This document shows positions 11,119 to 51,029 of a stretch of DNA of 61,617 nt, one piece after another. Within the stretch, counting starts at the first letter, position 1. The number at the start of each line of letters is the position of its first letter. The stretch lies in the IMG/VR virus record IMGVR_UViG_3300037755_000275, positions 1 to 61,617 of that record; one strand, written 5' to 3'. A program made the translations under genes and the position numbers. The notes beneath the pieces were generated by a model, which saw only the letters and a program-made list of their open reading frames with translations, had not been told where the DNA came from and did not search any database. Origin of the DNA: a virus. Its lineage: Duplodnaviria > Caudoviricetes.

Positions 11119-11140
11119 TGTTATTGTCCTTTCTACAGTC

Positions 11141-33178: not shown

Positions 33179-33208
33179 GGTGTCACCACTGCGTTGCAGG
33201 ACAGAGGA

Positions 33209-33565: not shown

Positions 33566-33625
33566 GTATTCCCTTTCACCTATTCCCTTTTTTCACCTAC
33601 CAATCGAAGTACTGTAGGCTATGTC

Positions 33626-34633
33626 CTACCAGTCAAAAGACACCAGCACGTTGGCCAGTGTTTCTCCAGCCGTGCCCAGGATCACCACGGTCAGGATGTC
33701 ACCACCGGAGATGTTCAACCGTGTTGAGGTGTTGGAACAGGTAAGGCCGGTCCCAATAGTGCAACTCAGTCCAGTAGCCACGCCATTGCGTAGTAATGTG
33801 ACCACGCCGGACGCCGCCGTCACCCCGCCCGTGACTGCTACGGCACGTAGATTGGTGGCTTGACTAGTACCTGCCACCAACAGTTGGTTATTCAACCCGG
33901 AGCTGGTGTCGTTGCAGGCTGTGCCAACCGGCTGATAGGGCATGAAAATCTGGCCGGATGACACGGTGCCAGTGCATAGACTTGACACTGTACTCCCACG
34001 GGTCACTGCTGTGGTACGCCCACTGGTCACGAATGCCGTGGCAAAGCCGTTACTGACATCAATGGACGGTGCCAGGGTCAACTGGGTGCTGTCCACGGGG
34101 CCGACTACTGTCAAATACGGATAGGCCCTGGACTGGTTGTCCATGCCAATGGTGGCATTGACCAGGGGTACCGCCGTCCCCAGTGTATATGCCTGTAACG
34201 CGGCCCCAGTGTCGGTCACGGCCCTGGTGGTCGTGGCCAGAGTCAGGCGGCATGTACATGGCACCGTCAAACCAGTCGTGTTGACCAGCTTGAGCAGATC
34301 GTAGGTCGTGGCACCTGGCACTGCGCTCCAGGTCACAATCACGGTATTGGACGCGCTGATAGCACCAGCCCCGCGCAACGTGGCAGGCTGACTCAGCACG
34401 ATGCCACGGGCCGTGGTTGCCACCACAAAGTAGGTGATGTCATTCGGACCATTTGGCCCAGAGTAGCTGATGTTGATGTTGGCCGGGGTCGGCGGGTCCT
34501 GAGTCATCGGAATCTGTTGGGCCGGCGACGGGATGAAGTTCCCCTGGCCATAGGCGGACCACGGAAGAACCAGCACAGACAGCAGTGCCAACGCGGCAAA
34601 TGTTTTTCTGATCGTATTCATTGTCATCTCCAT
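33626..34633 (-). CDS. Secreted beta-rich putative virion protein
   Basis: Signal peptide ...LVLPWSAYG|Q; VTWSAVPGATTY; C-terminal LLRNGVATGLSCTI. Confidence 0.65.
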   Translation of the reverse strand: MEMTMNTIRKTFAALALLSVLVLPWSAYGQGNFIPSPAQQIPMTQDPPTPANINISYSGPNGPNDITYFVVATTARGIVLSQPATLRGAGAISASNTVIVTWSAVPGATTYDLLKLVNTTGLTVPCTCRLTLATTTRAVTDTGAALQAYTLGTAVPLVNATIGMDNQSRAYPYLTVVGPVDSTQLTLAPSIDVSNGFATAFVTSGRTTAVTRGSTVSSLCTGTVSSGQIFMPYQPVGTACNDTSSGLNNQLLVAGTSQATNLRAVAVTGGVTAASGVVTLLRNGVATGLSCTIGTGLTCSNTSTRLNISGGDILTVVILGTAGETLANVLVSFDW

Positions 34634-34684: not shown

Positions 34685-35266
34685 CTACGTGTACCTCATC
34701 GGTGATCCACCACGCGGCCAATAGAACCCAGCCACGTTACAGATAATCCTGGTCCCGGCTGGCACAATCGGGCTCCCAATCGCATGGGTCACCGTATACT
34801 GCAACGTCTGGTCGCTCTCAACCAGAATGCCTCCGAACACCGTCCGTGGCTGCTGCAACGACCCCAGCGTGTTGCGGATATCGGAATAGTTCCGTACCGG
34901 CGTCCCCTGCAACGCGGCCGCACCAATGCGGATACGCCAGATCAGGTTGCCAGACCCTTCCACGAACCCTGGTCCGGTGAACAGATTCGTGACCGCCAGG
35001 ATGATTCCGTCATAGCCAAACGGAATCTGGTACGTGAGCACCAGTGTTTCCGTACCATTCGCCGCAGGAGTCACGATGGACCGGAACTCATCAAAGGGCA
35101 GCCCGCCGGGAGGCATCTCGATCCATGGGTAGGGCCAATAACCCTGTTCCCTGGTTTCCTGCGGCTCACACACGCCCTGGAGATTCCCATACCGTGCCCG
35201 TAGCGCCGCCAGCCCCTTCTGGGCCGTGTACGTCTGCCATGCATCGTTGATTGAATACGGGGTCAT
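34685..35266 (-). CDS. Putative single-jelly-roll minor capsid/penton protein
   Basis: Alternating beta strands (VLTYQIPFGYDGII, LIWRIRI, LQYTVT, ICNVAGFYWP). Fold inferred. Confidence 0.5.
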   Translation of the reverse strand: MTPYSINDAWQTYTAQKGLAALRARYGNLQGVCEPQETREQGYWPYPWIEMPPGGLPFDEFRSIVTPAANGTETLVLTYQIPFGYDGIILAVTNLFTGPGFVEGSGNLIWRIRIGAAALQGTPVRNYSDIRNTLGSLQQPRTVFGGILVESDQTLQYTVTHAIGSPIVPAGTRIICNVAGFYWPRGGSPMRYT

Positions 35267-35296
35267 TCCATTGTCTCCGTTTCACTGACCACGGGC

Positions 35297-35971
35297 CTAG
35301 CGCCTGCCTCCGGCCCCACCATTCTGACCACCGCCCGGTATCGGTAGATCCGTGGGCAGCGTCTTGGCCCAGTCCCCTGCCCGGCCGCACGGCTCAGCAC
35401 ACCTGATACACAATTGGCACCGCTGGGCCGCAACATTGTTGTTCGTGATGTACACATCGATCATGCCCACCAACCGTTTGGGTGGCGGCAGCACCACGTA
35501 GGGCTCAATCAGCACAGGGAACAACAGATCCGGCGGCGTGTTCAATGGCCTCAACGCGGTGGCCCTGGTGCCTTCCGCGTCAAAAAAGTCATATCCCGCG
35601 CAGGTATCCCTGACCTTGACCGTGAAATCATTCTCTGTACCATCAATGGCCGCGAACTGCCAGCCGTAGATCACCGTTCCCGGCCTCATGGGCTGCTGGT
35701 ACCGCAGGGTCCCAAATGCCTCAATGGCAATGTTCAAGTCATGTGGCACCACGTAGGTCTTGCCCCGGTACTGCTCCCGGCACGACCGCAGCTCATCCAA
35801 TTGCCCCAGGTACAGTGCAAATGACTTGTAGGGCAAATACCTCAGCGCCGCGTTCATCGAAAACCCGTCCGCGATAGTCACTGCCGGTGCCCAGGTCATG
35901 TCCTGGTCCATCAAGCCAGCCATCTGATTCCGTGGCTGTGGCCGTCGTTGGTTTTTAATCATAAAAATCAC
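35297..35971 (-). CDS. Putative single-jelly-roll capsid paralog
   Basis: FTVKVRD, LIEPYVV, IDVYITN, QLCIRCAEP; strand pattern like its neighbours. Confidence 0.5.
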   Translation of the reverse strand: MIFMIKNQRRPQPRNQMAGLMDQDMTWAPAVTIADGFSMNAALRYLPYKSFALYLGQLDELRSCREQYRGKTYVVPHDLNIAIEAFGTLRYQQPMRPGTVIYGWQFAAIDGTENDFTVKVRDTCAGYDFFDAEGTRATALRPLNTPPDLLFPVLIEPYVVLPPPKRLVGMIDVYITNNNVAAQRCQLCIRCAEPCGRAGDWAKTLPTDLPIPGGGQNGGAGGRR

Positions 35972-36022
35972 ACCCCTCTGTCCATCACCTGTGTAGTGTC
36001 ACCTGGATATGTCACCTGTCAC

Positions 36023-36913
36023 CTAACACGGAACACGGCGTACTCCCTGGAATGAAAACTGGTAAGACTGGTTGCCACCGGCCGCGTTCAACAGGCTGGT
36101 CAATTCAAACTCAATATTGGACCCGAATGGGTACACGTAGGTCGGGACCGGGAACACGGATTGGAAATTCAACGTGTTCTCAAAGTAGTTGACCCAGCGG
36201 GCTGGGTGTGGCTGTGAGGCCAGGGCGCGGTAGCCAGTCGGGTCGAACAGGAGAAACAGGAACGGGTCAAGGCCCAATGACTGGGGTAGACCACCATTGC
36301 CGTTGCCGCCATCTTCCTCAACCACTGGGATGGCATGGACGCAGATTTTCTGCAACTCAAAGTCGTATTCAGTGATTGGGATACTGAATCGGCGCGGGGC
36401 AGCTCCAGCGTCAAAGAAAAAGTTGATGGTCACGTCCAGTTCATACGAGTATGGGTGTTCGTAGTACACGTAATCGGATTGGTAGATACCCCAGTCCCAT
36501 TGGCCTTTGGGAACACGCTTGATACCCTGCCAGCCGATGAATGAGATTTCGTTGCCGTCTTCGTTGACGGCCTTGACCACATTCTGGAGATCGAACCGGA
36601 TCATGGACTGGACAGGGAAGAACTTTTCCGGGACCACTGTCCAGCGGTTGTTGGCGTTGACCAGTAAGGGAGTGCCGCCAGCGCCATGCTCTACACCCAA
36701 CCCCATGGCTTGGGACTCAGATGGGTTATAGTAGAGCCAGCGTGAGGCCACCGTGGCCATGCCGACCACGGAGCGGAGATAGAAGTCTGCATCAGTGATG
36801 TTGATGATGTTGCCGGATGGGCTGGTACCATTGGTCAAGGACCGTCCGTCGAATACCCAGAAGTAGGGAATATCGACCATGCCCTCTGGCGTCTTGTAGT
36901 GTTGTTCACGCAT
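36023..36913 (-). CDS. Tandem two-domain capsid-like protein (duplicated jelly-roll unit)
   Basis: Both halves match the 142-aa neighbour: ITDADFYLR / ITEYDFELQ, and WQGIKRVP / FQGVRRVP. Confidence 0.6.
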   Translation of the reverse strand: MREQHYKTPEGMVDIPYFWVFDGRSLTNGTSPSGNIINITDADFYLRSVVGMATVASRWLYYNPSESQAMGLGVEHGAGGTPLLVNANNRWTVVPEKFFPVQSMIRFDLQNVVKAVNEDGNEISFIGWQGIKRVPKGQWDWGIYQSDYVYYEHPYSYELDVTINFFFDAGAAPRRFSIPITEYDFELQKICVHAIPVVEEDGGNGNGGLPQSLGLDPFLFLLFDPTGYRALASQPHPARWVNYFENTLNFQSVFPVPTYVYPFGSNIEFELTSLLNAAGGNQSYQFSFQGVRRVPC

Positions 36914-37283
36914 CCTGGTTCACCTTGCCATCCCAGAACTTCTTGCTACGTTCCCTGGCGTCCAAGTCAGCACATAGCCCAAAGTCGCCGTGATTCTTGC
37001 CACAGAATAGGCAACTGAGGCCGTCCGGCATCCGGCCTACGTCAGCCCATTGCTCCGTAGTCACCGGACGGTGCAAGTGCTCAGCAAAACAGTCATCAAT
37101 GTCAGTGCCGCGTCCTGGCCGGTTCATGATCTGGTTATTGACTGGACACCAGTATGCCTCAAACTTGGGTCTGGGCATGAGCCGTGTCAGCAGCCCCAGG
37201 CCCAGTAGCATCCATGGGTTCCAGTCACCTGAGTTACTGTTCTTTCGTCGTTTCCTGTTAGCCATCACCTTTCTCCTTTTCAC
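36906..37283 (-). CDS. Basic N-terminus + TM hypothetical protein
   Basis: RKRRKNSN, WMLLGLGLL, CLFC. Confidence 0.5.
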   Translation of the reverse strand: MKRRKVMANRKRRKNSNSGDWNPWMLLGLGLLTRLMPRPKFEAYWCPVNNQIMNRPGRGTDIDDCFAEHLHRPVTTEQWADVGRMPDGLSCLFCGKNHGDFGLCADLDARERSKKFWDGKVNQDA

Positions 37284-37712
37284 CTACGCAATAGCAAATC
37301 GCTTGACCCCCCGGAACAAAATCTGGATCGTGTTCTCAGCAACGGACAAGTCAGCGATGTCAATGCCAATCTTGCCACCGGCTGGAATAATAACTTCCGG
37401 GAACTCCGGGTAGGGACTGGACGGATTGCCCTGGATGTTCGTATTGATGATCCGGCCGCTGGATAGCCAGTAGTCATCGGAGTCGCTGAATCGTACCGAG
37501 AACGCCCCGGTAAACAGGTTGATGACCGTTGCACGCCAGGGGAAGTCAGCATCGTTTTCGACGGACAACTGTGTCTGGAGGACCTGTGACGCGGTCAACG
37601 TCACGTTGAACACGTAATCAAATGACTGGTCCTTGTAACCGCCCGGTACGTCCAGTTGGCCAATGCCGTTGTAGGCCGGCGGCGCATAGGGATTGATTCC
37701 TGCACGGAACAT
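37284..37712 (-). CDS. Putative small single-jelly-roll capsid protein
   Basis: FDYVFNVTL, ENDADF, FSVRFSD, PEVIIPAGGKIGIDIADLS, IQILFRGVKRF. Strong RBS AAGGAGA. Confidence 0.6.
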   Translation of the reverse strand: MFRAGINPYAPPAYNGIGQLDVPGGYKDQSFDYVFNVTLTASQVLQTQLSVENDADFPWRATVINLFTGAFSVRFSDSDDYWLSSGRIINTNIQGNPSSPYPEFPEVIIPAGGKIGIDIADLSVAENTIQILFRGVKRFAIA

Positions 37713-37754
37713 GTTCTATCTCCTTATCTGTGTGTCGTCATCCGGCCTCAATAA

Positions 37755-37790
37755 ATGGACGGGGAGCCGACGAAAACCCCCCGTCCAGGG
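37755..37790 (-). terminator. Hairpin/attenuator downstream of the candidate major capsid gene
   Basis: TGGACGGGG...CCCCGTCCA followed by TTTATT on the minus strand. Confidence 0.5.
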
Positions 37791-37940
37791 TGATGGGCCG
37801 ACTCAGTTAGGGACCCCCGGCCAAGAGAGCACCTATCATGTCGGCAGGAGCAGGAACCGGACCTAGGAGGCGCATCCGGTTCCCACACTCAATGGTGGGT
37901 CAGTAACCCAGCCTCTTAGTCGTTAGACCAAGGACTATGG

Positions 37941-38552
37941 CTACTGGACACCACGGGCGTGCAGGCCGTCCAGCAGCAACTGGAGCAATGCCCCGGTGCC
38001 GCCGACCGCGCCCGCCGCCAAAGTCAGGTTGTTCCCGATCAGAGCCGCCGAGAAATTCATCTTGTTCTCAATGACAATCGGGATGGCCAGCTTGTGCATG
38101 GCCTCACGCGACGGGTTACCGTTGTTGTAGGTGGCCTCGTCGGTGATCGAGCTGAAACCGTGGATGCCGCCCCCGGCATTGTAGAACCAAGGCGGTCCCT
38201 GGTTATACGGTTTGTCACCCAGGACAAACGAGATGGCAAAACCGTTGACGATGCCCAACAGGTCCGAGCGGAGAATGTTTTCCGCATACCGGAACCGCAT
38301 TCCCAGGATAGAGAATGCCTGAGGGGCGGCCAACTCGTTAGCCGTCCTCATGTTGGTTTGCGCCAAAGTCTTACCGGACGCCGGACCCACAGACGTGTAG
38401 AACGCGCTGTTGGTCGTGGTGATCGTGGCGGCGGCGTTGTAGGTCACGGTGTCCCACAGAGGCTCATGCTGCACGTCCATGCGATTCTGGACATACGTTT
38501 CGCTCTGAAAGGACTCAAAAATCATCTGTTGCTGCGGAGTCATCGGATTCAT
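37941..38552 (-). CDS. Candidate major capsid protein (vertical single jelly roll)
   Basis: EPLWDT...GKTLAQTNM...PQAFSILGMRF...IPIVI..NFSAAL..LLLDG. Own RBS, flanked by structured intergenic regions, directly after the Arg-rich core gene. Confidence 0.6.
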   Translation of the reverse strand: MNPMTPQQQMIFESFQSETYVQNRMDVQHEPLWDTVTYNAAATITTTNSAFYTSVGPASGKTLAQTNMRTANELAAPQAFSILGMRFRYAENILRSDLLGIVNGFAISFVLGDKPYNQGPPWFYNAGGGIHGFSSITDEATYNNGNPSREAMHKLAIPIVIENKMNFSAALIGNNLTLAAGAVGGTGALLQLLLDGLHARGVQ

Positions 38553-38682: not shown

Positions 38683-39492
38683 CTAGAAAGCCCTCCCAAA
38701 GGCTCTGGACACACCGTTCATGGTGACCGGCGCACCGGCTCCATAGGTGCCATTGGCGGCCACGGGAATCGGACGCCCGTAAGCCGGATAGTTCGCCTGG
38801 TTCGGGTTCAACGGGTTCTGAGGCACCGGGTAGGCACCGGGAACCAGATCACCGAGACCACGCATACCCTGAAGGGCAAGCTGCGAACCAATGGCCGGGA
38901 TGAAGGCATTGAGCAGAACCGAACCGGCCTGCATCAAGCCGCCAAACCGGACAGCAGCCCCAAACTGACGATTCCACAGACCACCCAGCCAACCGGCCGC
39001 GAATGCCGCCCCAATGGATGACAAAGAGGCCATGATTGGCGTGGACTTGAGATTGGCCGGCAGTGCGTTGGAAATGAACTTGGTGGCGGTCACACCGACC
39101 AGACCACCGAAGATTTCCTGCACCTGCCCAGCCATTGCCCCACCGAGCTGGTTACGGCGGCGGCGGTTGCTCCTGCGGACCACGATACGGGTAGCGTTGC
39201 GTCGTCGGCGGCGCGGGGCAGCCGAGATACGCCGTCGCGTGCGTCGTCGGGGTCGCGCCGTGTAGGAGGCATTCCGGCGGCGCGTCCGACGTGCGGTAGT
39301 GCGCTTTCTGCGTTTCTTCACTTTCGCTCTCCTTGGATTGAGTGCCCCGAGCGTAATGACCCGGAGCGGGTTTTTCGACCGGCTACGGTGGCGGGCACGT
39401 GTGGCCCGTTTCCGTCTCGTGGCCGAAGACTTTGACTTTCGACGGCGGCTCACCGGGTTGGCAATCCGCCTGACTCGAATGATGCGTTGCAT
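38683..39492 (-). CDS. Arg-rich DNA-condensing core protein with C-terminal membrane domain
   Basis: About 115-aa protamine-like N-terminus with NP/RRRN motifs; hydrophobic helices; MRGLGD. Confidence 0.7.
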   Translation of the reverse strand: MQRIIRVRRIANPVSRRRKSKSSATRRKRATRARHRSRSKNPLRVITLGALNPRRAKVKKRRKRTTARRTRRRNASYTARPRRRTRRRISAAPRRRRRNATRIVVRRSNRRRRNQLGGAMAGQVQEIFGGLVGVTATKFISNALPANLKSTPIMASLSSIGAAFAAGWLGGLWNRQFGAAVRFGGLMQAGSVLLNAFIPAIGSQLALQGMRGLGDLVPGAYPVPQNPLNPNQANYPAYGRPIPVAANGTYGAGAPVTMNGVSRAFGRAF

Positions 39493-40082: not shown

Positions 40083-42302
40083 TCAGTTCACAATCCCCTC
40101 AGGACGTACTTCGTACTGGCCGCCGGACACGGATAACAGGTGGTTGATCGTGTCATAGTTCAATACGGGCTTTTGTCCTGTCACTTCCCCCAGCTTGTGG
40201 AAGTAGTCAATCAGCTCAAACTTGTCAAAACCCTTCTCTGTCCTGTAGGTCACCACCTGGAGTACGCCCAGGGCCATGTGATCGCGTACCCAGTCCCGGC
40301 CTGACATGCCCAGTTGACTTAGGTCCACGTACTGTGAGCCGCCCTCAAAGTACAGTTGGCGTCCATCAGGGGATGAACACAGCATGATGACGTTGCGGCC
40401 GGATTTGGGGAACTGGAGCCGCACCTTTTCATCCGTCATCAGGTGTACGTCCAGTTCAGCCAGTTCGCCAAGTTCGGCCAGGTTGTCACGCGATGAGATC
40501 ACGGTACGGACTTCGGTGGTTTGCTTAGGACCACGGCCATGGAACTGTTGATAGAGCTGGTCGGCGTCCTGCATGGTGGCAGGGTTAGGATTACGTCGCC
40601 TTCCCCTACCACGCCTTGGACTTTCATCCACAAACCAGTTGCTAAGCAGTCCGTCCAGGTCCTTGTATGCTGCCGTGCTGCTGATCTCTGGGTGTGCCTT
40701 GGAGAACTCTTTTGACGCCCACAGCATTTGCTCATACCGCCCACTTTTCCCAGTCCCACTCAGTGGCACACGAGCCAAATGGTAGAGATTCACCAATTCA
40801 CCAGCGTCCTTAGGGTCGATGAATCGGGGTACATAACGGTCAGGGTTGTTTCCACCCCGTGTCACTTCTCCAGGGTTCCCATTCCCATTCCGTTTGAATT
40901 TCCTTAACGCCTTCCTCGTCGCCGTAATCCCAATACCCCTAGCCCGGCCATTGACCTTCCTCGGCACGCCACTCAGCCTCAAATCCCCCTCATAGGCCAT
41001 CAGCCACCTATCAGCCTTCTGGTAAGTGTCAAACACCTTGATAGGCTTCAGGCTTTCCCCATATACCCCACTCTCATCAAACGGCATCACAGCCCACTTG
41101 CCAGGACTGCGGAACTTGATGACCTTCTCGGCTCTGGCGTTCCAGTTGTTCCACTTGATGGTGCCGGCGCTGGGGTCCACGTCACCAACACCAATATCCT
41201 TGCCGTGCGTGCGGCTGATGGTGAAGCGGAGATATTGAGGGTCCTTCTCCACCTTAGACTTGATTGCCTTCAACAATTCCGCCGTGGTGTCACCGTGGAT
41301 GTAGCCGTAGCCGCCTGAGGTATAGCGATCAGGCCACTGGGCAATCAGTTTCTTCCCGGTGATGGAGTTACGGCGTCGGCGCTTGATCCTACTCCTGTCC
41401 TTATGGGTCCACGCATCATAGAATCCGCGCATAAACTCAGTGCGTTTCTTTCCATATGATCGTGTAGGCTCCCCGGCCCGTCCCCACATAAACTCAAACT
41501 GCTGACCCATCGTAATGTCAGGGTCTATAGCGATCCCGGTATCAGCACCACGGCGCTCCTGTTCCCCATGGGAGTAGCCAGCGTCATACCAGTTGACTGC
41601 TGTGGGGTTACGGCGTCCGGGCTCAGGCCACAGCCGGTTGAACTCACGGGCGGCCAAGTCGTAATCATCCTCATTCCACTTGGTACGGCCTGCTTCCCTC
41701 ATCTGACGATTGGCAGCATCCGTAGCCGCCGCACGGGCCAATTGCTGAGTCATGGCAGGCCGTGGATTCAACTCTTTACCAGTCGCCCTCCAGAAATGTG
41801 CCGCCTCCCTCAAATATTCTGCCTCCCTCACCTGTTGGCTGTCCGTGACCCCGCTCTCCTGGTCATAGGACCGGCGCTTCAGCATTTCCGCTGCCCACTC
41901 AATACCCTTTTGCCGATTGCCAAACATCTTGGTCCCTTCAGCAATAAGGTGTGAATGCTTCTGCACTATGTGCTTGGTACGTCCCCGGTAATGTGGCTCA
42001 TCCATCAGGTCAGTAATAGATGGGTTCCGCCGTGTGCCTTCCACATGCTCCTGATGTCCTGGAGACTCCCAAACCGTTTGTCTTCTGTTGGGATCAAATA
42101 CCTCAACCGGATGCCCAGTCCGCTTGTACTCCTTCTTTCCAGCAGCAACCGCCTTAGCCTTGCTGTCAAATGTCATCCGCACTGGTAACTGGTTAGGGTC
42201 ATCCAAGTCATAGCGCGTGACCTGATAGGAATAACCACGATGCTTGCGGGTCGTGGGTTCCCCGTAAGCATTCCGCCTCCGTCTCTGTACCCTACGCGCC
42301 AT
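40083..42302 (-). CDS. RRNP-punctuated modular basic protein (739 aa)
   Basis: Modules separated by RRRRNA, RRNP, LNP, RRNP, RRRRNS, NNP, RRRNPNP. C-terminal domain YQQFHG...YFHKLGE..P...GGQY..GIVN. Confidence 0.75.
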   Translation of the reverse strand: MARRVQRRRRNAYGEPTTRKHRGYSYQVTRYDLDDPNQLPVRMTFDSKAKAVAAGKKEYKRTGHPVEVFDPNRRQTVWESPGHQEHVEGTRRNPSITDLMDEPHYRGRTKHIVQKHSHLIAEGTKMFGNRQKGIEWAAEMLKRRSYDQESGVTDSQQVREAEYLREAAHFWRATGKELNPRPAMTQQLARAAATDAANRQMREAGRTKWNEDDYDLAAREFNRLWPEPGRRNPTAVNWYDAGYSHGEQERRGADTGIAIDPDITMGQQFEFMWGRAGEPTRSYGKKRTEFMRGFYDAWTHKDRSRIKRRRRNSITGKKLIAQWPDRYTSGGYGYIHGDTTAELLKAIKSKVEKDPQYLRFTISRTHGKDIGVGDVDPSAGTIKWNNWNARAEKVIKFRSPGKWAVMPFDESGVYGESLKPIKVFDTYQKADRWLMAYEGDLRLSGVPRKVNGRARGIGITATRKALRKFKRNGNGNPGEVTRGGNNPDRYVPRFIDPKDAGELVNLYHLARVPLSGTGKSGRYEQMLWASKEFSKAHPEISSTAAYKDLDGLLSNWFVDESPRRGRGRRRNPNPATMQDADQLYQQFHGRGPKQTTEVRTVISSRDNLAELGELAELDVHLMTDEKVRLQFPKSGRNVIMLCSSPDGRQLYFEGGSQYVDLSQLGMSGRDWVRDHMALGVLQVVTYRTEKGFDKFELIDYFHKLGEVTGQKPVLNYDTINHLLSVSGGQYEVRPEGIVN

Positions 42303-42342: not shown

Positions 42343-45008
42343 CTACCGTTTCCACAGCCCCAGGACTATGGCCCCCAACGCCCCACCAATGACCAAGGTC
42401 TGTAGGTCAAGGCCCTGGACAAATTCACCCACGCCGGCACCCAGGACAGGGGCACCGTTCACGTAGCCCGTAGCCGTGTCACTGGCCGCAGCACCGTTGG
42501 TCCCTTGGCCGCTCGTATCCCCGCTGCCACCATCCCCGCCACAGCAACAGCCGGACATGCCAGCCCGCAGAGCCCGGATCAACGGGTTACTGGGCACTGC
42601 CAACCTGGACGGCATCAGGTCCCCGAACTTGGGCACGTAGCCGATGTCCCCGGCGAAACCATATGGCATCAGCGCACGGGACTTGTTATCCACGATGGGA
42701 TTCTGTGGCACGACAAAGAAGCCTGGGATGAGATCCCCGAATCCTGGTGCCGGATGGTGGTTGATCCACATAGTTTGTTTCTCCCTTACCTTCGTCCCTT
42801 ACCTTTTGGCCAAGACCACTACGCCGAAAATCGCCGCCCCGATCAGAAACATGGTCGTATAGTTGATTACTGGTTTCGTACCTGGCTCTGGCGGCTTGCC
42901 AGTGACCAGAGCCCATGTGCTATAGGCAGAACACATTTCCGGGTTGGCTCTGCAATAAGCCGCTACTGACTTGTCACCAGCCTCAATCGCCCGCTGACGC
43001 ATCTCAGGAGTCATCGCTGGCCCAAAATCAGCCGCCTGACACTTGGATGGGTCAATTGGCAAACACTCGGCTACCATGGCACCTGCTTGGCCAAGGTAGT
43101 CACACCAGGCCGGTGATGGAGCACAGGGGTTCGTCTCCCTCTCACTGGGCCACAGCGGGATGTACTGATACCACGGTGTCTGACCCATGCCACGGTTGGC
43201 TGTCCACCTGTGCATGGCGTCATGGTCCAATCGCTCGAATTTTGAAATCAATGGCATTCGTTACTTTTTCGTCAAAGTGCTCAAGGCCAGTAGGCCGACC
43301 AAAGATCCCGCAATCAGCAACCAGTTGTCATTCACCCAGGCCAGGGCCGTGTCCGGCGGTCGTGGCGCTAATGGTGGCTGCCCACCTGTCACCGTAGGCG
43401 GCGGTGAAAACAGAGACGGCAGCATTCCCCACCACTGGTCCTCAGCGCGGGTGACAGGTGTACCGGCTTGGATCAACGGAACGTTGGCCATCCAGTCCAC
43501 GTTGCCCATCGCAGTACGTGGATCAAATACACGCCCCATGCCGTCCATGTCCATCACCGGGATCTGGTCGCAGTCTTTGGCACCCGGTGGCACTTGCAGA
43601 CTGGGCACGATTCCTGGCCTGTTGATCGGGATGCGTGACTCCACAATACGGACCACTTCCTCCGGCTCAAAGTAGTGAGCCAACAGCGTGTAGTTCGGAT
43701 TGTTTTTCACATGCGGAGGTATTTGCATCGTCTGTTACCACTTGACCTGTAGTGCCTCTATTTGCTCTACTTCCTGTTTGCATTCTTCATCTGTCATCCC
43801 AGGGTCAGCTTGAACGGCCCAGCCATCGTACAGACCATCTTTGGTGAAGTAATGGACGATGGGCTGTTTACCGGGGGCGCGGCACACGATGCTATCAAGT
43901 TCCTCCCCGTCTTCCACGTAGGAACCGTCCGGTATGTACAGCACACGGTTCAGGTCCTTGTTTCCACCGTCACCAATAACCTTGAGGTTCATCACTTGCC
44001 CTTTCGCAACAGCACCCAGGCCAGCACGCCGCCGATGGCAAATGGTGCCAGCCCTTCTGTCATGGATATCCCAGGACAGTCCTCCAGGTACACATCCGGG
44101 GATGGTGCCCAGTCCCCAAAAGTCCGCGTACCGATGTCGGCGGCCAACGGCCCGTAGTCGGCCGGTCCCGGAGGAGGCACCAGTTGTGCCGGGCATCTTC
44201 GCCAGTCAAATATCACCATTTAGTTGCCCCCTTCGTAGAGACTTGCCTGTTGGCCCCACCAGTTGACTCCGGCCATGCCGTTGCCATTGACCCGGCCAAG
44301 TCCCATGGGACCCTTGACCATGGCCCACCACTGGTCAATCGTCAGTGGTGTGTTCTGCACGTCGTCTACGCCCAGTGGCTTTCTTCCCAATTTCGTGGCC
44401 TGCCACAGTGACTCCGGCACAGCAAACGGGTCCACGGCGGGCAGATTCGCTGGCAGATAAAAGTTCCATTGCCAAAAGTGCAGCTCCCCACCATTGGCAG
44501 TGGCCTCACCCTTCGCTGCCTGCCACACCTGGTCCTTGACGTTGCCGCCGCCGGACTGTCCGCCGCCCACGGTATTGCTGCCAACCTGTTGCCCAGCATC
44601 ATTTTGTTGGCCCGGCGTCTGGCCAGTGGTATTGGTAATCGGGACCTGTCCACCATTCGATATGGGGGCAACGTCGCTGGCCAGTCCCACGTAATCTGGG
44701 ATCATGCCCTCGCCTACTGCCCACCTGTAACCGAAGTAGATGGCCGCACCGATGGCCGCGTACTTGACCACCCCGCCCATGTCGCCCATGCCGCTTGTTT
44801 TGGCCATTCACTTCCCTTTCTTTTTGCTGCCTGTTGCCACAAACAGGGCTGCCCCTGCCAACAAAGCCAACAATGCACCTGCACCAATAGCCCCACCACT
44901 ACAGGAACCACAGGCCGTGGCAACCGATTGCACAGCAGCCATGCTGGGAACTCCCAGCATTCCGTAGCGCAATCCCTGACGTACTATGTTTGGCAACTGG
45001 GCTGTCAT
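42343..45008 (-). CDS. Cluster of seven small proteins, mostly membrane-anchored (42343-42771, 42799-43257, 43261-43728, 43735-43992, 43992-44219, 44220-44807, 44808-45008)
   Basis: Tightly coupled ORFs. Five end in a TM helix plus K/R tail, one has an N-terminal TM, and 43735-43992 is soluble and acidic. Confidence 0.7.
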
Positions 45009-46138
45009 TTCTTACTCATCACCATGTAGCCGCCGACTGCTGCACCGGCCCATACCCACCAGGGAAGGTCACCCAAGGCACCAAACAGTCCACCATCCCC
45101 ATCCCCAGCCGGAGCGCCAACACCCGTGCCAAAGTATCCATAGTCCGTAACTGCCGTCACTGTCTGGCCATCTCCTGACACCACACCCTCACCGACAAAG
45201 AATCCCGGCGGCACCTTCAGCGCTTCCTGCACCATCTCCAGACTGGAATTGGCGTTGTAGGCAATGGCCGCCCGCCAGCTTACCCGTCCATCGGACCGCT
45301 CAATATCCAACCCCTTGACCAAGGACTGCATCAACTGTTGGCGTAACTGTGCCCCCTGCTGAGCTACCGCCGCAGCATCTTGTTGAACAGTCACAGATCC
45401 ACCAGCCGCAGCATTGACAGCCGCCGTGATTGCAGCCTGGGATTCAGGAGTCCCAATAGCCGAGGTGGGTACTCCCTGCTGGATTGCCGCCGCCGTGGCC
45501 TGTGTCCTGGCCGCCGAGGTAATTGCCGTCCCCGGATTCAGGTTGATGGCATAGGCCCCATGCTCATAGGGTCCGCCGTCAATCGAACACATCATGGTCG
45601 GGTAGTTCAAACCACCCGGCACATTAGACGGATACACCAACTTGCAATTGACCGTGTGCCTGGTCTGCTGAAAATACTGCTTGGCATAGTCACTGAGCGG
45701 CTGTGCCATCTGCTGCTCAACCGACATGGAGGCATAGTCGGAGGCGGATGCGCTGGACTGTTGCACCACTGACTGTGGCGACTGGCAATAGCCGTTGTGC
45801 CAGACACGGCCTGGGCTGCACCGGCAACCGTCAGGACCCTCCGGCCCGGTATAGGCAGCAGTACGCCCGCTTCCCTCAGGGCAGTTGGCCCCAAGACTAC
45901 CAATGCCGTTGTACCGAGTCGGCAGAGCACCGGGCCAGTCCAGGTAGCTCAGCCAGTTCCACATGGGCACGCGGTCCATCTGGGCACGAACCTGGGCAAA
46001 CTCATCCGGCAGCACACAGGCTTTCCGCACCCGGTCCCACACGTAGGGATACGGACACAGCGCACGGGACTGTTGCCCCACCGCGCCGTTGTTGAACGCG
46101 CCCGCCTGTTGCGCCTCGTTGACCTTTACGTGTGCCAT
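45005..46138 (-). CDS. C-terminally anchored membrane protein with Cys-rich modules
   Basis: CPYPYVW..AC, CPEG...CRCSPG..YC; WWVWAGAAVGGYMVMSKK. Confidence 0.7.
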   Translation of the reverse strand: MAHVKVNEAQQAGAFNNGAVGQQSRALCPYPYVWDRVRKACVLPDEFAQVRAQMDRVPMWNWLSYLDWPGALPTRYNGIGSLGANCPEGSGRTAAYTGPEGPDGCRCSPGRVWHNGYCQSPQSVVQQSSASASDYASMSVEQQMAQPLSDYAKQYFQQTRHTVNCKLVYPSNVPGGLNYPTMMCSIDGGPYEHGAYAINLNPGTAITSAARTQATAAAIQQGVPTSAIGTPESQAAITAAVNAAAGGSVTVQQDAAAVAQQGAQLRQQLMQSLVKGLDIERSDGRVSWRAAIAYNANSSLEMVQEALKVPPGFFVGEGVVSGDGQTVTAVTDYGYFGTGVGAPAGDGDGGLFGALGDLPWWVWAGAAVGGYMVMSKK

Positions 46139-46178
46139 GATCTGTGGTCTCAGTTCGTTTTAATCACTAAACTCCAGG

Positions 46179-47381
46179 TCACATCTGCAATGCCACGAAA
46201 GCCAGCACTCCGGCAATCAGCAGTGGGGTGAGATTGCCCATGTCACCAGTGCCCTGGGTCCGGTACACCGTTTGACCTGTCACAGGGTCCACTTCGGCTA
46301 CCAGGCCGGGATCAGGGACCACATCCGGGTCATTGGCGATTGGGTCCCTGTAGCGTGCAAACCAGTCCCACTGGCCACCGGGTTTGCGGTCGTCAATGCA
46401 CCATTTACCGGGCGTGCCCATGTCAGGGATGCCGCAGGACTTGACCACGTAGTCCCAGCCGGCGTCAAAGTTTTGTAACGCCTGGTATTGGGATGAGACC
46501 GTGTGGGGGCCGGACATGTAACCAGCCAGGTTTTGCTGCATCATGGGCTCTACGCTGTCCACAATTTCAGTGGTGGCGCGTTTCTGGCCCGGCTTCTTGC
46601 GGCTGAATAGGGCCATGAGTCCAATGGTCACGCCTGCTACGGCCAGACCAATGGGACCACCGGCGGCGGCAAGCCATACGGAGCTGGATGCCAGGGAGCT
46701 ACCTGATGCAATGGCGGCGGATGTTACTGCCAGACCTGTGCCCACAGCAGCCTGGGTTGTGGAACCACCAGACGGTAGACGGAATCCGCCCTGGGTTGTC
46801 TGTCCCTGTGTGAAGTACTCGGAAAGATCCTGACCAAGCCCACCTAGTCCGTTCTGTGTCTGGTGGAACGGCTTGGGGTCAACGTAGATGAACTTGTCAT
46901 AGCCGACCACGCCACGGTGTTCCATGGGACGGGATAGGGCCTTGGCCGCTTTGTCAATCCGTGCCTGACGTTCCAGCTCCTCAAGCTGCGGGTCCGTGTT
47001 CATGGCCCGGAGCGCCCATTCCGTACCCATGCCGATGATGACGCCTTGGGTGATGGGATCAAGGAAGCCTAGGGAACCAAGGGAGCCATCACTGCGGCGG
47101 TAGACGCCACGGGCTGCGGCCGGCGCTGGTTGGCCCACGTGACTGAGTAGCCAAGCCGTGTCCTGCACACGGGAATTGATACCAGAGAATGCGCCAGGGT
47201 GACCATGGCGGCGGCGCTCACGGACACGGCGGGATGGCGTGGCGTCAGCACTGGCGGGCTGGGCTACGTGGGACAGCAGCCAGGCTGTGTCCTGCACACG
47301 GGAGTTGATGCCACGCACACCACGGCCGGGGGGACGTGAGACGTGTCCACCAAGAGCCGATCTGTAGGAGGTTTGTTGCAT
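46179..47381 (-). CDS. Membrane protein with an internal repeat and Gly/Ala-rich hydrophobic segment (entry protein candidate)
   Basis: GINSRVQDTAWLLSHVxQPA twice; AAAGGPIGLAVAGVTIGL; C-terminal TM. Confidence 0.65.
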   Translation of the reverse strand: MQQTSYRSALGGHVSRPPGRGVRGINSRVQDTAWLLSHVAQPASADATPSRRVRERRRHGHPGAFSGINSRVQDTAWLLSHVGQPAPAAARGVYRRSDGSLGSLGFLDPITQGVIIGMGTEWALRAMNTDPQLEELERQARIDKAAKALSRPMEHRGVVGYDKFIYVDPKPFHQTQNGLGGLGQDLSEYFTQGQTTQGGFRLPSGGSTTQAAVGTGLAVTSAAIASGSSLASSSVWLAAAGGPIGLAVAGVTIGLMALFSRKKPGQKRATTEIVDSVEPMMQQNLAGYMSGPHTVSSQYQALQNFDAGWDYVVKSCGIPDMGTPGKWCIDDRKPGGQWDWFARYRDPIANDPDVVPDPGLVAEVDPVTGQTVYRTQGTGDMGNLTPLLIAGVLAFVALQM

Positions 47382-49684
47382 TACCTGTAAGCCGCCCGCC
47401 AACCATTTTTGATGCTCTTTTCCAACCGCGCCTTATGGGCACTGGCGCTGGAGTATCCACGTTTCTTGAGTCGTGATACAGCCTTCCTTGCAGAGGCTAC
47501 GGTGTTGCCAACCCACGCGATGTTGTTGAACCCCGTGGTTGCATAAACTACGTAGCCTTCCCGGTAATCCAGTACTCCGGGATTAGACCGTCGCCTCCCC
47601 TTCCGTGCCATCCCCGCCATTCTCTTAGCCCCATACTTGCGTCTGCCGATTGATGTACACAGACCACCAGGACTACGCACCCCACGGCGCTTCATGGTGG
47701 ATACACATTTGCGGAACCTGGAACCGGTGCCCAGCTTGCCTTTACCAAATGACGGGTTGGCTTTATACCCACGTTCAATTTGCTTGTATCCCACAAAGCG
47801 ATTACCATCCCACCGATGGATAGAGGCTTCCCCTTGTTTTTGTGCTACTGCTTCCGCCTTACTCAAGGCAGCACGTAGCGTGGCATGGTAGGAATGCTCT
47901 CCGCGCCCACGCCCGTTGAACACCATGTACTTTTTTATTGGATTGGATGACCGTGACGGGTTACTCACCCTGCGAAACTGTTTCCGCCACCCACGCTTGA
48001 ACCCGGCCGGTAGCTTGGCCTCAAACCCCTTGACTGCCTTGTGACCAGCAGCCAACAGCTTTTTCATGGCCTTCTGGGCTTCAGTGGCAAGACGACCAAC
48101 CCAGGCCACGGAGTTGCCGACCTGGACCACGTAGCCTTTGCGTGGGTTGTTGACACGGGTATGGGGGTTGGTCCGCCGACGCAGCACGGACGCGGCATTG
48201 CGGCGTCGTGAATTTGGCCTGGCAACCTTGGACCCATATTTGTATGCACTGCCACCAATCTCAGCCAACCCATCTGCTGCACCTACCCGCCAGTTGGCCA
48301 AGTAACTCCGTTGCAGCTCAGTACGCATACTTGGAATCAGATTCCTGTAGGAACCAAACTCCCTTTTAATGGCCGTCTCAATTTGTGACTGGGATGGTGC
48401 CTGTCTCTTGCCACCACGTTTGCCTACCTTGAACCCAGCACGATAGGCTACGGTGCTGAGGGCTTCATAGGAGGGATTGCGTAACCTCCCACCCTTGGCC
48501 ACACTCCTGGTCCCAATCCCTGCATCCCGTCCCCGGCCACGTGGATTCTTGGCACCAGTTGGGTTTATCCACGACTTGGCTTGTCTGAGCGTGTCTGTCT
48601 GCCACACCAACTTTGACTGGTAATACACGTCATAGGAGGTTCGGACACGGCCATCGCCACTACGTCCCCTCTTTTTGACAATCACAAATCCCATGTAGGG
48701 GATACGAGTTGGATTCATCACCCGTGCCCCTACCGACCGTCCAATACGGCCGGCCACGGCCCTGGCGCTGGGTCCGGCTACAGTGCGGCGTGGACGTACA
48801 CCCGGATTGCGTTTCCTGGGACTTGACCCAGTACCGATTACTACCCGCACCCTGTCATCACCGGAACGCCCTTCTTGCCTGTTGATGATGTTGGCCGTTT
48901 CTTCTGCTTCCTTCCTGGACGTGTACCGATACATTGAGCCATGCTTCCGATAACCAATCGGCTCAGGTCCGGGAGTACGCATCTTGCCTTCAGCGACCCA
49001 GTAGTAGGTTGGCCCCTTGCCGGGATTCCTACCCCGAATAATCCTGGGCCTGTCCTTCTTCGGCGGCGTCGGCGGCTTTTTGGTCCTGGGCGGAATCCAC
49101 GCCCGTCTTGCAGCAAGTACCCCGCCGGCTTTTGGCAACCCATACCCGTACCCTGGACCCGTGGCCGTGGCCGTACCGACCGTGAATATCGGGTTCTGTC
49201 TCCCACGCCCTGTAACCCGACTTGCCTTCTTGAACTGTTCCCGCCACCCGACAACCGGCACCTTGCCGCTGACCGGGTTAGGCCCAACCTTTTTAATCAT
49301 GCAAATGCCGAACCCGGCGCGTTTGAGTTTGGTCTTGGCCTTGGTCGTGTCAGGTTTGGAGGCAGAGACGTAGGCCAGGGTGCCTTTGCAGTAGACACCC
49401 CATTTGTGACCGGCGCGGGACTTGGATCGTGGGTTGGTGCGTCGTGTCATGGTGCGCCTACCTCGTGGGTTTCTTTTCTTGGGCAACTTACCACCAAGTT
49501 CGATCACGGTTTGTTCAATGGCTGACTTCCACGCCGGGTGGATCGTAGTACGCAATTGTCCAATCGTTGGTGACCCCGGATAGCTTGCTGAAATTCTGAT
49601 TGAGTCGTTGTACCCACGGCGCTCTGCCAACTTTATTAGTTGGTTCTGAATCTTCCGAAGGTATGTGCGTTCGGCGTCCGTCAC
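47381..49684 (-). CDS. NP-punctuated, highly basic polyprotein-like protein (767 aa)
   Basis: GTG start overlaps the upstream TGA at 49681-49684. 16 Asn-Pro dipeptides, mostly after K/R runs. Confidence 0.75.
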   Translation of the reverse strand: MTDAERTYLRKIQNQLIKLAERRGYNDSIRISASYPGSPTIGQLRTTIHPAWKSAIEQTVIELGGKLPKKRNPRGRRTMTRRTNPRSKSRAGHKWGVYCKGTLAYVSASKPDTTKAKTKLKRAGFGICMIKKVGPNPVSGKVPVVGWREQFKKASRVTGRGRQNPIFTVGTATATGPGYGYGLPKAGGVLAARRAWIPPRTKKPPTPPKKDRPRIIRGRNPGKGPTYYWVAEGKMRTPGPEPIGYRKHGSMYRYTSRKEAEETANIINRQEGRSGDDRVRVVIGTGSSPRKRNPGVRPRRTVAGPSARAVAGRIGRSVGARVMNPTRIPYMGFVIVKKRGRSGDGRVRTSYDVYYQSKLVWQTDTLRQAKSWINPTGAKNPRGRGRDAGIGTRSVAKGGRLRNPSYEALSTVAYRAGFKVGKRGGKRQAPSQSQIETAIKREFGSYRNLIPSMRTELQRSYLANWRVGAADGLAEIGGSAYKYGSKVARPNSRRRNAASVLRRRTNPHTRVNNPRKGYVVQVGNSVAWVGRLATEAQKAMKKLLAAGHKAVKGFEAKLPAGFKRGWRKQFRRVSNPSRSSNPIKKYMVFNGRGRGEHSYHATLRAALSKAEAVAQKQGEASIHRWDGNRFVGYKQIERGYKANPSFGKGKLGTGSRFRKCVSTMKRRGVRSPGGLCTSIGRRKYGAKRMAGMARKGRRRSNPGVLDYREGYVVYATTGFNNIAWVGNTVASARKAVSRLKKRGYSSASAHKARLEKSIKNGWRAAYR

Positions 49685-50331
49685 CGTTTCCCCCGATAGG
49701 TCCCACCACCGACGCCACCACTGAACGCAATCGCCAGCAGGATCATCCCCGCTGCCAGTACCGCAAACTGTCCACCTGCGCTGGAAGGCAACATGCTTTT
49801 CAACTGTTCCGGCAGATACTCCTCCAGTCCGGCCATGGACACGGGAGCACCACCGGGAGCACTGGGCCTCGATACTTGCGCCAGGTACATGGACTACTTC
49901 CTCCGGGACATGGCCATGAATACCAGCACGCCAACCCCGACCAGGGCCACGGTCCCAACTGAGAACCCGGTGGCAAAACCTTCCGGCGTGGCTACCCCAT
50001 ACTGCTGCGACGACAATGAACCCGGAATGATGGGCAACGACGGCTGCGTACCTTCCGGCTGCTGGTAGTAGATGGTCCCCTGCGGCGTTGTCTGCACCAC
50101 GGTCCCAGGTCCATACTTGAACCGCGTGCTGACTGTCTCCACGCCAGTCTTGATGAGATCCTGCCACCAGGTCTGGCCCATGCCACGGGATGCCAGGTAG
50201 CCACGTAGGCCGCCGGATGGTTCATGTCCGCCGGGGACACTCATCGTGCCCTCTAGCGACTGTGCCGAGAATGCACGCCGGATGCGCTGAGCCTGATTGC
50301 CTACCGTGTAGCGGCCAACGACAGCGGCCAT
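49681..50331 (-). CDS. Two C-terminally anchored membrane proteins (49681-49890 and 49894-50331)
   Basis: FAVLAAGMILLAIAF; RGMGQ...VALVGVGVLVFMAMSRRK. Confidence 0.7.
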
Positions 50332-50333
50332 GG

Positions 50334-51029
50334 TCAGATCCCCCCTCTTGCCCACAGGTACATCAGCAGCACGACGCCGACTACGGTCCCAACTCCCATG
50401 CCACCAATTGGCCACTCCTGTATCCGGGTATAGGGCGCGTGTTCCCACCCTGGATGTGGGCCATGACTCGTGTCCACCGCGATCCGTTCCCCCTCATTGG
50501 TGTAGGCGGCAACGTAGACGTGGGAGAACTTACCCACCTCAACCCTGTCCGCCGCGATGGTCACGAACGCGGTACGGATACCCAGCGCCGTCAACAGTGC
50601 TGCCGTATACATGGAGAAGTCGTCGCAGTCGCCCAACCGGCTGCATTGGCGGCCATCACCGCACATGGCGGCCATTTGTTTTGGCCGAACCAGCACTTCA
50701 ATGATGGGGACACTGCCGGGAGTTTCCATCCACGAGGACAGCCGCTCGTCGCCCACGAATGACAGCCGGCGCTTCACGTAGCGGAATACGCGGTCCACGA
50801 TCTCACGCTGTGGGATGTGGCCGTAGTCGATAGTACCTACAGCCTCGTGGGCATCCCTGCGGATCTCAAGTGACTGGGCATCCTCCACCACGTACTGCCG
50901 CATTAAATCTATGGTGGCGGCAACCTGGCCGTCCGCGTCATCCGGGACGTAGCTCTCCTGCGTAGGTAGGACTCGACCGAAGGCTGGATGGTAGAGGGCC
51001 TGCATCCTGCGGGCTAGGCCCCCTCCCAT
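50334..51029 (-). CDS. Transglutaminase-like cysteine protease with C-terminal TM
   Basis: Catalytic Cys-His-Asp motifs GDCDDFS, FSHVY, AVDTS. First gene of the virion operon. Confidence 0.85.
   Translation of the reverse strand: MGGGLARRMQALYHPAFGRVLPTQESYVPDDADGQVAATIDLMRQYVVEDAQSLEIRRDAHEAVGTIDYGHIPQREIVDRVFRYVKRRLSFVGDERLSSWMETPGSVPIIEVLVRPKQMAAMCGDGRQCSRLGDCDDFSMYTAALLTALGIRTAFVTIAADRVEVGKFSHVYVAAYTNEGERIAVDTSHGPHPGWEHAPYTRIQEWPIGGMGVGTVVGVVLLMYLWARGGI

What the first reader, a model, noticed from the sequence alone, without database searches (positions are those of the whole stretch)
34685..38552. Array of jelly-roll-like paralogs including a fused tandem: a snapshot of the single-to-double jelly roll transition
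Seen: the 142-aa protein aligns by eye with both halves of the 296-aa protein. ENDADFPWR matches ITDADFYLR and ITEYDFELQ; PEVIIPAGGKIGIDI matches PEKFFPVQSMIRFDL and PTYVYPFGSNIEFEL; FRGVKRF matches WQGIKRV and FQGVRRV. The 203-, 224- and 193-aa proteins show a similar strand pattern, giving six putative domains in five genes. Known: sphaerolipoviruses use two single-jelly-roll capsid proteins, and double jelly rolls are thought to have arisen by duplication or fusion. Inference: an unusually complex capsid with an independently fused double domain.
Basis: partly seen in the sequence, partly recalled or inferred. Interest (0 to 1): 0.75.

Follow-up and report, generated by a model that had tools for sequence, protein, structure and literature searches.

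The report
Paralogous jelly-roll capsid-like gene block
A complete 61-kb bacterial virus genome with no recognisable tailed-phage head genes carries a conserved block of small beta-barrel (jelly-roll) proteins, three of them related to each other and one a fused tandem pair, which probably build a new kind of tail-less capsid.

Summary

So there are four homologous domains in three genes plus one structural analogue, not six shown domains.

The 296-aa model (pLDDT 86.8) has two jelly rolls. Rigid alignments to double-jelly-roll capsid proteins cover only one domain, so canonical double-jelly-roll geometry is not shown. A complex prediction supports binding of p142 to p296 (0.61 against 0.00 for controls).

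The block is syntenic in dozens of metagenomic contigs. The domain family has about 990 representative clusters, with single and double forms and at least two further separate duplications.

The window and two complete relatives have no detectable terminase, portal or HK97 capsid gene. They do encode many tail-anchored membrane proteins and extremely basic proteins.

Best reading (0.55): this is the capsid-shell module of an undescribed tail-less, membrane-containing bacterial virus lineage.

The parts
37941..38552 (-). p203: the most conserved protein of the block. Predicted single jelly roll and candidate major shell protein.
37756..37787 (-). Terminator-like hairpin (13-bp stem, then TTTATT) in the 228-nt gap between p203 and p142.
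   Evidence: sequence. Not conserved: a crude hairpin-plus-T-run test was positive in only 5 of 31 loci.
37284..37712 (-). p142: the single-domain member of the jelly-roll family, with a conserved N-terminal arm.
   Evidence: Median identity 55.5%. Predicted to bind p296, with arm residues 3-19 at the interface.
36906..37283 (-). 125-aa basic, Cys/His-rich ORF inserted between p142 and p296. Specific to this window and not part of the conserved block.
   Evidence: 0 homologs in 46 loci. No Pfam or PHROG hit. In other loci p142 and p296 are directly adjacent.
36509..36892 (-). p296 N-terminal jelly-roll domain (about aa 8-135).
   Evidence: hhalign to p142 99.4%, E 4e-21. Strands in the AF2 model.
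36026..36466 (-). p296 C-terminal jelly-roll domain (about aa 150-296).
35297..35971 (-). p224: a distant fourth member of the same domain family (aa about 48-190).
   Evidence: hhalign 92.5%, E 4.8e-7, 126 columns. Its HMM hits p142-family representatives. P0170 is a natural p142-like + p224-like fusion.
34685..35266 (-). p193: conserved last gene of the block; fold unresolved. The same domain forms the C-terminal ~180 aa of larger proteins (297-757 aa) downstream in other loci.
   Evidence: No similarity to the family. No PDB or Pfam hit. ESM Atlas gives only leads below 0.9.
38683..39492 (-). w269: N-terminal 125 aa are 41.6% K+R (net +52), followed by a hydrophobic C-terminal half. Always lies upstream of p203. 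Candidate DNA- or membrane-binding core protein.
40083..42302 (-). w739: basic, variable N-terminal part plus a conserved C-terminal ~170-aa domain. Conserved upstream neighbour of the block.
   Evidence: No PDB or Pfam match.
42343..51029 (-). Cluster of proteins with C-terminal transmembrane anchors, plus the 928-aa protein (47381-50167) with net charge +136.

Best explanation
The block p203-p142-p296-p224-p193 is the shell module of a tail-less, internal-membrane-containing, temperate dsDNA bacterial virus of an undescribed lineage. p203 is a single-jelly-roll protein of the SPV1 / HHIV-2 small-capsid-protein type and is probably the main lattice former. p142, the two domains of p296, and p224 are paralogs of one jelly-roll domain. 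p142 docks onto p296 through its conserved N-terminal arm, giving a three-barrel unit, and such units build capsomers or vertex-proximal positions. p296 arose by tandem duplication and fusion of this domain, an event that recurred in other branches of the family. The genome is probably condensed by very basic proteins (w928, w739, the N-terminus of w269) under a membrane carrying many tail-anchored proteins, without a packaging ATPase, as in SPV1.

Shown: the paralogy, the predicted jelly-roll folds, the synteny, and the absence of detectable tailed-phage head genes.

Inferred: virion location, stoichiometry, lattice positions, the membrane, and the mode of packaging.
For: Paralogy.

Complex of p296 and p142: ipSAE 0.61 (runs 0.67, 0.58, 0.61) against a best control of 0.00. 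That mark was reached by 58 of 80 solved complexes and 2 of 110 mismatched pairs. The runs share >=90% of contacts and the partner pLDDT is >=84.

Synteny: all five genes occur in the same order in 17 of 28 loci with four or more matched genes; the other 11 end inside the block. The order also holds in MAG contigs.

Conservation: p203 and p142 are the most conserved proteins of the block.

No terminase, portal or HK97 capsid. In the window, 53 ORFs were scanned in Pfam, 42 in PHROGs and 20 in NCBIfam. For two complete relatives, 0 of 84 ORFs of >=180 aa matched. The only canonical Walker A motif lies in a replication helicase.

Six ORFs between 42.3 and 51 kb carry a C-terminal membrane anchor. 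w928 has net charge +136 and the w269 N-terminus is 41.6% K+R.

SPV1 has single-jelly-roll hexamers and pentamers, an inner membrane, a nucleoprotein core and no packaging ATPase (PMC8459092, whole text; PMC8812541, passages).
Against: - No double-jelly-roll capsid protein aligns over both p296 domains.
- The p203 model is only moderately confident (pLDDT 71, with residues 127-156 below 50).
- The genome shares genes with tailed phages: Sipho_Gp157 and a collagen-like 'tail fibre'. There are weak 'tape measure' and 'minor tail' PHROG hits (E 5e-4 and 7e-3). A relative has a short 'head decoration' hit (E 7.7e-7 over 75 aa).
- ESM Atlas neighbours are auto-labelled Uroviricota.
- Highly divergent HK97 capsid or portal proteins can escape HMM searches, and none of the large unknown ORFs could be folded.
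- There are no virion proteomics, no expression data and no isolate.
Confidence: 0.55

Rival explanations
1. Only p203 forms the shell lattice. The p142/p296/p224/p193 set is a vertex, spike-base or sub-capsomer (membrane-bridging) complex of the same tail-less virus.
Against: p142 is as conserved as p203 (55.5% against 55.6% median identity). Nothing places any of these proteins in the virion.
Confidence: 0.2
2. The virus is a very divergent tailed phage whose HK97 capsid protein, portal and terminase escape detection. The jelly-roll paralogs would then be decoration or cement proteins, baseplate proteins or fibre-adaptor proteins.
Against: Three complete genomes of 56-62 kb have no terminase, portal or major capsid hit in PHROGs. 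For the window this also holds in Pfam and NCBIfam. No ORF outside the replication module has a canonical P-loop. p142, p203 and a distant family member have no tblastn match in 50,697 deposited phage genomes. The many tail-anchored membrane proteins and polybasic proteins are not typical of tailed phages.
Confidence: 0.15
3. The proteins are not structural. They would be secreted or carbohydrate-binding jelly-roll proteins (lectin-like or discoidin-like) used for host-surface interaction or superinfection exclusion.
Against: p203, p142, p296, p224 and p193 have no signal peptide or membrane segment. They keep a fixed order inside the structural region over deep divergence. High conservation and a predicted hetero-complex suit an assembly.
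Confidence: 0.05

Closest known systems
SPV1 capsid proteins VP4/VP10 (Portogloboviridae)
   Different: There is no sequence similarity. The host is bacterial (a prophage-like copy in a Bryobacteraceae MAG contig), not a hyperthermophilic archaeon. The genome is about 61 kb against about 20 kb, and it encodes its own PolA, primase-helicase and integrase-bearing relatives. It has an extra paralogous family that includes a fused double domain.
Two vertical single-jelly-roll capsid proteins of Helvetiavirae / Singelaviria (P23-77 VP16 and VP17; HHIV-2, SH1 and HCIV-1 VP7 and VP4)
   Different: Here the small and large proteins are clearly related in sequence, and the large one is a tandem of the same domain rather than a barrel plus a tower. 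There is no FtsK/HerA-type packaging ATPase. The Pfam model VP17_central_barrel is not matched. The genome is two to four times larger.
Double-jelly-roll major capsid proteins (PRD1 P3, PM2 P2, STIV, NCLDV; Bamfordvirae)
   Same: Two consecutive jelly rolls lie in one chain. Foldseek ranks these proteins near the top, at E 1e-5 to 1e-4 and prob 0.9-1.0.
Cellular two-jelly-roll proteins (peptidylglycine alpha-hydroxylating monooxygenase; DUF2961)
   Same: PHM is the top Foldseek hit (E 5.6e-6, TM 0.29). It belongs to the set of cellular double-jelly-roll proteins discussed in PMC8812541.
   Different: There is no sequence or Pfam relation. Rigid alignment again covers about 107 residues. The family studied here was found only in virus-like contexts.

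Membership tests
[quoted passage not shown] | Two consecutive 8-stranded jelly-roll domains in one polypeptide | tested here: met
   AF2 model with pLDDT 86.8 and domains at about 12-135 and 150-295. Foldseek matches to DJR capsid proteins at E 1e-5 to 1e-4.
[quoted passage not shown] | Fixed side-by-side orientation of the two barrels, giving a pseudo-hexagonal trimer | tested here: inconclusive
   Every rigid alignment to a DJR capsid protein covers one domain only (<=135 residues aligned; TM 0.20-0.29). This rests on a monomer model. Trimer formation was not tested.
[quoted passage not shown] | Match to a curated sequence model of the family | tested here: not met
   No Pfam or PHROG hit at E<=0.1 for p296, p142, p203, p224 or p193. 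No real PDB profile hit.
[quoted passage not shown] | FtsK/HerA-type packaging ATPase encoded in the genome | tested here: not met
   None found in Pfam, PHROGs or NCBIfam. The only canonical Walker A motif is in a replication helicase.
Helvetiavirae / Singelaviria pair of single-jelly-roll capsid proteins | Adjacent genes for a small and a large beta-barrel capsid protein that form heteromers | tested here: inconclusive
Helvetiavirae / Singelaviria pair of single-jelly-roll capsid proteins | Conserved packaging ATPase next to the capsid genes | tested here: not met
   The upstream genes are w739, w108 and w269, and none is an ATPase.
Portogloboviridae-like architecture (SPV1) | Single-jelly-roll capsid protein resembling SPV1 VP4/VP10 | tested here: met
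Portogloboviridae-like architecture (SPV1) | No packaging ATPase; genome condensed by a basic nucleoprotein under a membrane | tested here: inconclusive
   Absence of an ATPase is shown (see above). Polybasic proteins and tail-anchored membrane proteins are present. Their role is inferred.
Portogloboviridae-like architecture (SPV1) | Archaeal host and a circular genome of about 20 kb | tested here: not met
   The genome is 61.6 kb. A related element lies beside cellular genes in a Bryobacteraceae MAG contig. Direct end repeats of 127, 127 and 97 bp fit circular assemblies but do not prove them.
Caudoviricetes (tailed phages) | HK97-fold major capsid protein, portal and large terminase | tested here: not met
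   No hit in the window, nor in 84 ORFs of two complete relatives. Only HMM-level sensitivity was used; the large unknown ORFs were not folded.

The most novel reading that the evidence does not exclude
These genomes represent a widespread, undescribed, high-rank lineage of temperate bacterial viruses of 45-75 kb, with links to Acidobacteriota. They would build a membrane-containing icosahedral capsid from an SPV1-like single-jelly-roll protein plus heteromeric units of a second jelly-roll family, and package DNA by nucleoprotein condensation without any ATPase. Within that second family, single-to-double domain fusion has happened repeatedly and is still visible in sequence. That would be a living example of the single-to-double jelly-roll transition inside a virus.
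Probability: 0.35. Interest if true: 0.9.

Novelty: new variant of a known kind. Interest (0 to 1): 0.75.

Why it matters
How double-jelly-roll capsid proteins arose is disputed. One view is fusion of two viral single-jelly-roll genes. The other is capture of an already-double cellular protein (PMC8812541). In known viruses the two halves, or the two single-barrel proteins, no longer resemble each other in sequence.

Here a single-domain protein, a fused tandem and a more distant paralog of one domain lie side by side and are still alignable. A distant relative has a double where this genome has the single. Other branches made their own doubles. That makes the order and frequency of such fusions testable with real sequences.

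Separately, complete bacterial virus genomes of about 60 kb without terminase, portal or HK97 capsid, and with about 830 to 990 protein clusters that no one has named, would extend tail-less jelly-roll viruses of bacteria well beyond the <20 kb quoted in that paper for prokaryotic double-jelly-roll viruses.

Tried and rejected
- Pfam, PHROGs and NCBIfam on the five proteins and their neighbours gave nothing.
- PDB sequence-profile searches for the p296, p203, w739 C-domain and p193 families gave only chance hits; the polyubiquitin rows for p296 have 0 significant stretches.
- A Pfam scan of the 17 w739 C-domain homologs found nothing.
- The search for related loci in viral contigs found nothing with p296 alone, the p296 alignment, P0138 or P0045. 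The genomic context of the distant double-domain branches therefore stays unknown.
- tblastn of p142, p203 and P0138 against 50,697 deposited phage genomes found no match.
- ESM Atlas returned only unnamed viral clusters at >=0.97. The named neighbours scored below 0.9 and are leads only: VP17_central_barrel 0.75 for p193; PM2 P2_N/P2_C and PRD1 P3_C 0.76-0.77 for p203. The Atlas held no structure for either protein.
- No RNA holder was listed among the public sequencing runs, so expression could not be examined.
- A terminator after p203 as a sign of higher expression fits in this window but in only 5 of 31 loci, so I dropped it as evidence.
- I considered the 'GTGKS' motif in w739 as a possible P-loop. 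It lies outside the conserved part of the protein, so I rejected it.
- Literature: five full-text searches found no description of this group. The SPV1 structure paper (PMC6842630) is not held. Supplements were not consulted.
Full report
**What the window is.** The window is a whole virus record of 61,617 bp. Its ends repeat over 127 bp. Two complete relatives have end repeats of 127 and 97 bp. These lengths look like assembler overlaps of circular or permuted genomes; that reading rests on my own recall of assembler k-mer sizes and is not proven. CheckV's estimate for the record is only 44%. However, contigs carrying the same genes cluster at 56-62 kb.

One part of the genome encodes replication functions known from phages: family A DNA polymerase, D5-type primase-helicase, helicase, ThyX, UDG, ERCC4 nuclease, an AAA_24/Sak4-like protein, ParB, topoisomerase and Sipho_Gp157.

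No ORF matches a terminase, a portal or a major capsid family. I scanned 53 ORFs in Pfam, 42 in PHROGs and 20 in NCBIfam. The only structural labels are a collagen-like 'tail fibre' at the window's left end and two weak hits: 'tape measure' at E 5e-4 over 56 residues, and 'collagen like minor tail' at E 7e-3.

**The observation.**
- Single-sequence BLAST gives E 5.6e-5 for the two halves of p296, and only E 0.19 for p142 against the N half.
- Families were gathered: 12 proteins for p296 and 27 for p142. More came from 46 loci.
- Profile comparison then gives p142 with p296-N at 96.4% / 1.3e-9, and N with C at 94.8% / 5e-8.
- Deeper profiles give 99.4% / 4e-21, 97.7% / 1.3e-12 and 97.8% / 1.2e-12.
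- HMM searches agree. The p142 model finds two domains in most p296 homologs, and the p296 half-models find the p142 homologs.

**The other three proteins.**
- p224 looked unrelated at first (probability 16%). A search of 1.84 billion representative proteins with the p142 profile returned 992 hits at E<=1e-3, of which 359 were at <=1e-10. The p224 HMM hits 22 of the best 150 of these, with a best E of 4.8e-15. One of them, P0170 (376 aa), is a natural fusion of a p142-like and a p224-like part. A profile of 175 domains from those representatives aligns with p224 at 92.5%, E 4.8e-7, over 126 columns. p224 is therefore a fourth, distant member.
- p203 and p193 remain unrelated in sequence (probability 1.1% and 1.6%).
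- The p193 domain recurs as the C-terminal ~180 residues of larger proteins (297-757 aa) downstream in other loci. My first impression that it was N-terminal was wrong.

**Structures.** p296 with a 34-sequence alignment gives pLDDT 86.8 and pTM 0.86, with two beta-sandwich domains.
- Foldseek against the PDB gives 82 matches at E<=1e-3. The top hit is peptidylglycine monooxygenase (5.6e-6). Double-jelly-roll capsid proteins follow (SGIV, PRD1 P3 at 1.2e-5, PR772, PBCV-1, PM2 P2 at 9.3e-5), but with TM-scores of only 0.20-0.29.
- BFVD gives the same picture.
- The fold is therefore a jelly roll in both halves. The canonical double-jelly-roll geometry is not reproduced.

p203 with 24 sequences gives pLDDT 71.1 and an 8-stranded sandwich.
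- Foldseek finds nothing at E<=1e-3; SPV1 scores E 0.032, prob 0.94.

**Complex.** p296 and p142, each given as its alignment, score ipSAE 0.61 (runs 0.67, 0.58, 0.61) against 0.00 for the best of three controls. That mark was reached by 58 of 80 solved complexes and 2 of 110 mismatched pairs. The runs agree in >=90% of contacts, and the partner pLDDT is >=84. The interface uses the N-terminal arm of p142 (residues 3-19), which holds several of the family's invariant residues. The arm touches both domains of p296. This supports binding but does not show it.

**Distribution and evolution.**
- The order p203-p142-p296-p224-p193 is complete in 17 of 28 loci with four or more matched genes. The other 11 end inside the block.
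- Upstream, w739 (only its C-terminal ~170 residues are conserved), w108 and w269 recur.
- p203 and p142 are the most conserved proteins (median identity 55.6% and 55.5%). p296, p224 and p193 lie at 31-35%.
- The p203 profile finds 831 clusters, none with a name.
- Of the 150 best p142-family representatives, 118 have one domain and 32 have two.
- In a FastTree domain tree (213 domains, 136 columns, midpoint root), the 36 domains of 18 double proteins form an exclusive clade (support 0.98), and the 6 domains of 3 others form another (0.82). The N and C domains of p296 form two strongly supported clades (1.0 and 0.99) that are not sisters. That points to at least three separate duplications. 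The domain is short, the root is arbitrary and gene conversion was not excluded.
- A distant relative (L051) has, in the same order: a p203-like gene, a double-domain protein where this genome has the single p142, a second double, a short p224-like gene and a p193-like gene.
- In L004/G003 the p296 homolog is split into two ORFs.

**Virus context.**
- Two complete relatives (56,208 and 61,475 bp) were fetched whole. Of their 84 ORFs of >=180 aa, none matches a terminase, portal or major capsid PHROG at E<=1e-3. They have integrases, a lytic transglycosylase, PolA, ParB and topoisomerase. One has a 75-residue 'head decoration' hit (E 7.7e-7).
- In the window, six ORFs between 42.3 and 51 kb end in a hydrophobic anchor.
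- Four further ORFs outside that stretch (at 32684, 33209, 33626 and 53714) begin with signal-peptide-like segments by eye.
- w928 carries net charge +136, w739 carries +31, and the first 125 residues of w269 are 41.6% K+R.
- Outside the replication module no canonical P-loop exists.
- p142, p203 and a distant family member have no tblastn match in 50,697 deposited phage genomes.
- Four MAG contigs carry the block. In one, labelled Bryobacteraceae, the element runs from the start of a 358-kb contig to an integrase at about 37 kb. Beyond that lie cellular genes: a formyltransferase with an ACT domain, DUF2961, a serpin and a dehydrogenase. This indicates a bacterial host and a temperate lifestyle.
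- Near-identical DNA occurs in several sediment and soil runs. No RNA run is listed.

**Interpretation.** The most economical reading is a shell module of a tail-less, membrane-containing virus. p203 would be an SPV1-like single-jelly-roll lattice protein. p142, p296 and p224 would be a paralogous set forming heteromeric units. The DNA would be condensed by polybasic proteins rather than pumped by an ATPase, as described for SPV1 (PMC8459092, whole text; PMC8812541, passages). I give this 0.55.

The rivals are:
- The paralogs form a vertex or sub-capsomer complex of the same kind of virion (0.2).
- They are accessory proteins of a very divergent tailed phage (0.15).
- They are non-structural lectin-like proteins (0.05).

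Five full-text literature searches found no description of this group. Supplements were not available.

**Limits.**
- Only two structures could be predicted. p193, p224 and all the large unknown ORFs were not folded.
- No homo-oligomer was tested.
- The genomic context of the distant double-domain branches could not be fetched.

Noticed in passing
window 36906-37283 (-): A 125-aa basic, Cys/His-rich ORF sits between p142 and p296 only in this genome. In the other loci the two genes abut. It may be a small inserted (homing-type?) gene. It has no family hit.
   Followed up: partly
window 47381-50167 (-): A 928-aa protein with net charge +136, 20% K+R and repeated 'RNP...G(Y/W)VV...W(V/I)G' modules. 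It has almost no homologs in the fetched loci. It is a candidate genome-condensing protein.
   Followed up: partly
window 42343-51029 (-): A run of ORFs (142, 152, 155, 407, 184 and 231 aa; the 377-aa ORF is borderline) that each end in a single hydrophobic helix followed by K/R residues. This is a tail-anchored membrane protein cluster.
   Followed up: partly
window 32684-34633 and 53714-54373 (-): Four ORFs (164, 118, 335 and 219 aa) begin with signal-peptide-like segments. That is unusual for phage structural regions.
   Followed up: no
L004 10441-11722 (= G003): The p296 homolog is split into two ORFs (213 and 207 aa). The break is inside the C domain, near the variable Gly/Asn-rich loop. 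It could be a frameshift, an insertion or a real split.
   Followed up: no
L050 13329-14030: A second, divergent p203-like gene (233 aa, HMM E 2.3e-20) lies about 9 kb downstream of the first. p203 therefore also has paralogs in some genomes.
   Followed up: no
L063 4707-5675 (Bryobacteraceae MAG contig, host side of the prophage): A cellular DUF2961 protein (Pfam E 7.6e-29) lies a few kb from the integrated element. This is the family proposed as the cellular relative of double-jelly-roll capsid proteins. The proximity is probably coincidental.
   Followed up: no
window 37713-37940: A 228-nt non-coding gap follows p203, with a strong hairpin. A gap of about 110-270 nt is kept at this position in most loci, although the other genes are tightly packed. 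The hairpin plus T-run is not conserved (5 of 31 loci).
   Followed up: partly
window 9973-11223 (-) and 20314-21675 (-): A trypsin-like protease with NAL1-like domains and a 453-aa protein with a Methyltransf_24 domain lie in the replication half of the genome.
   Followed up: no
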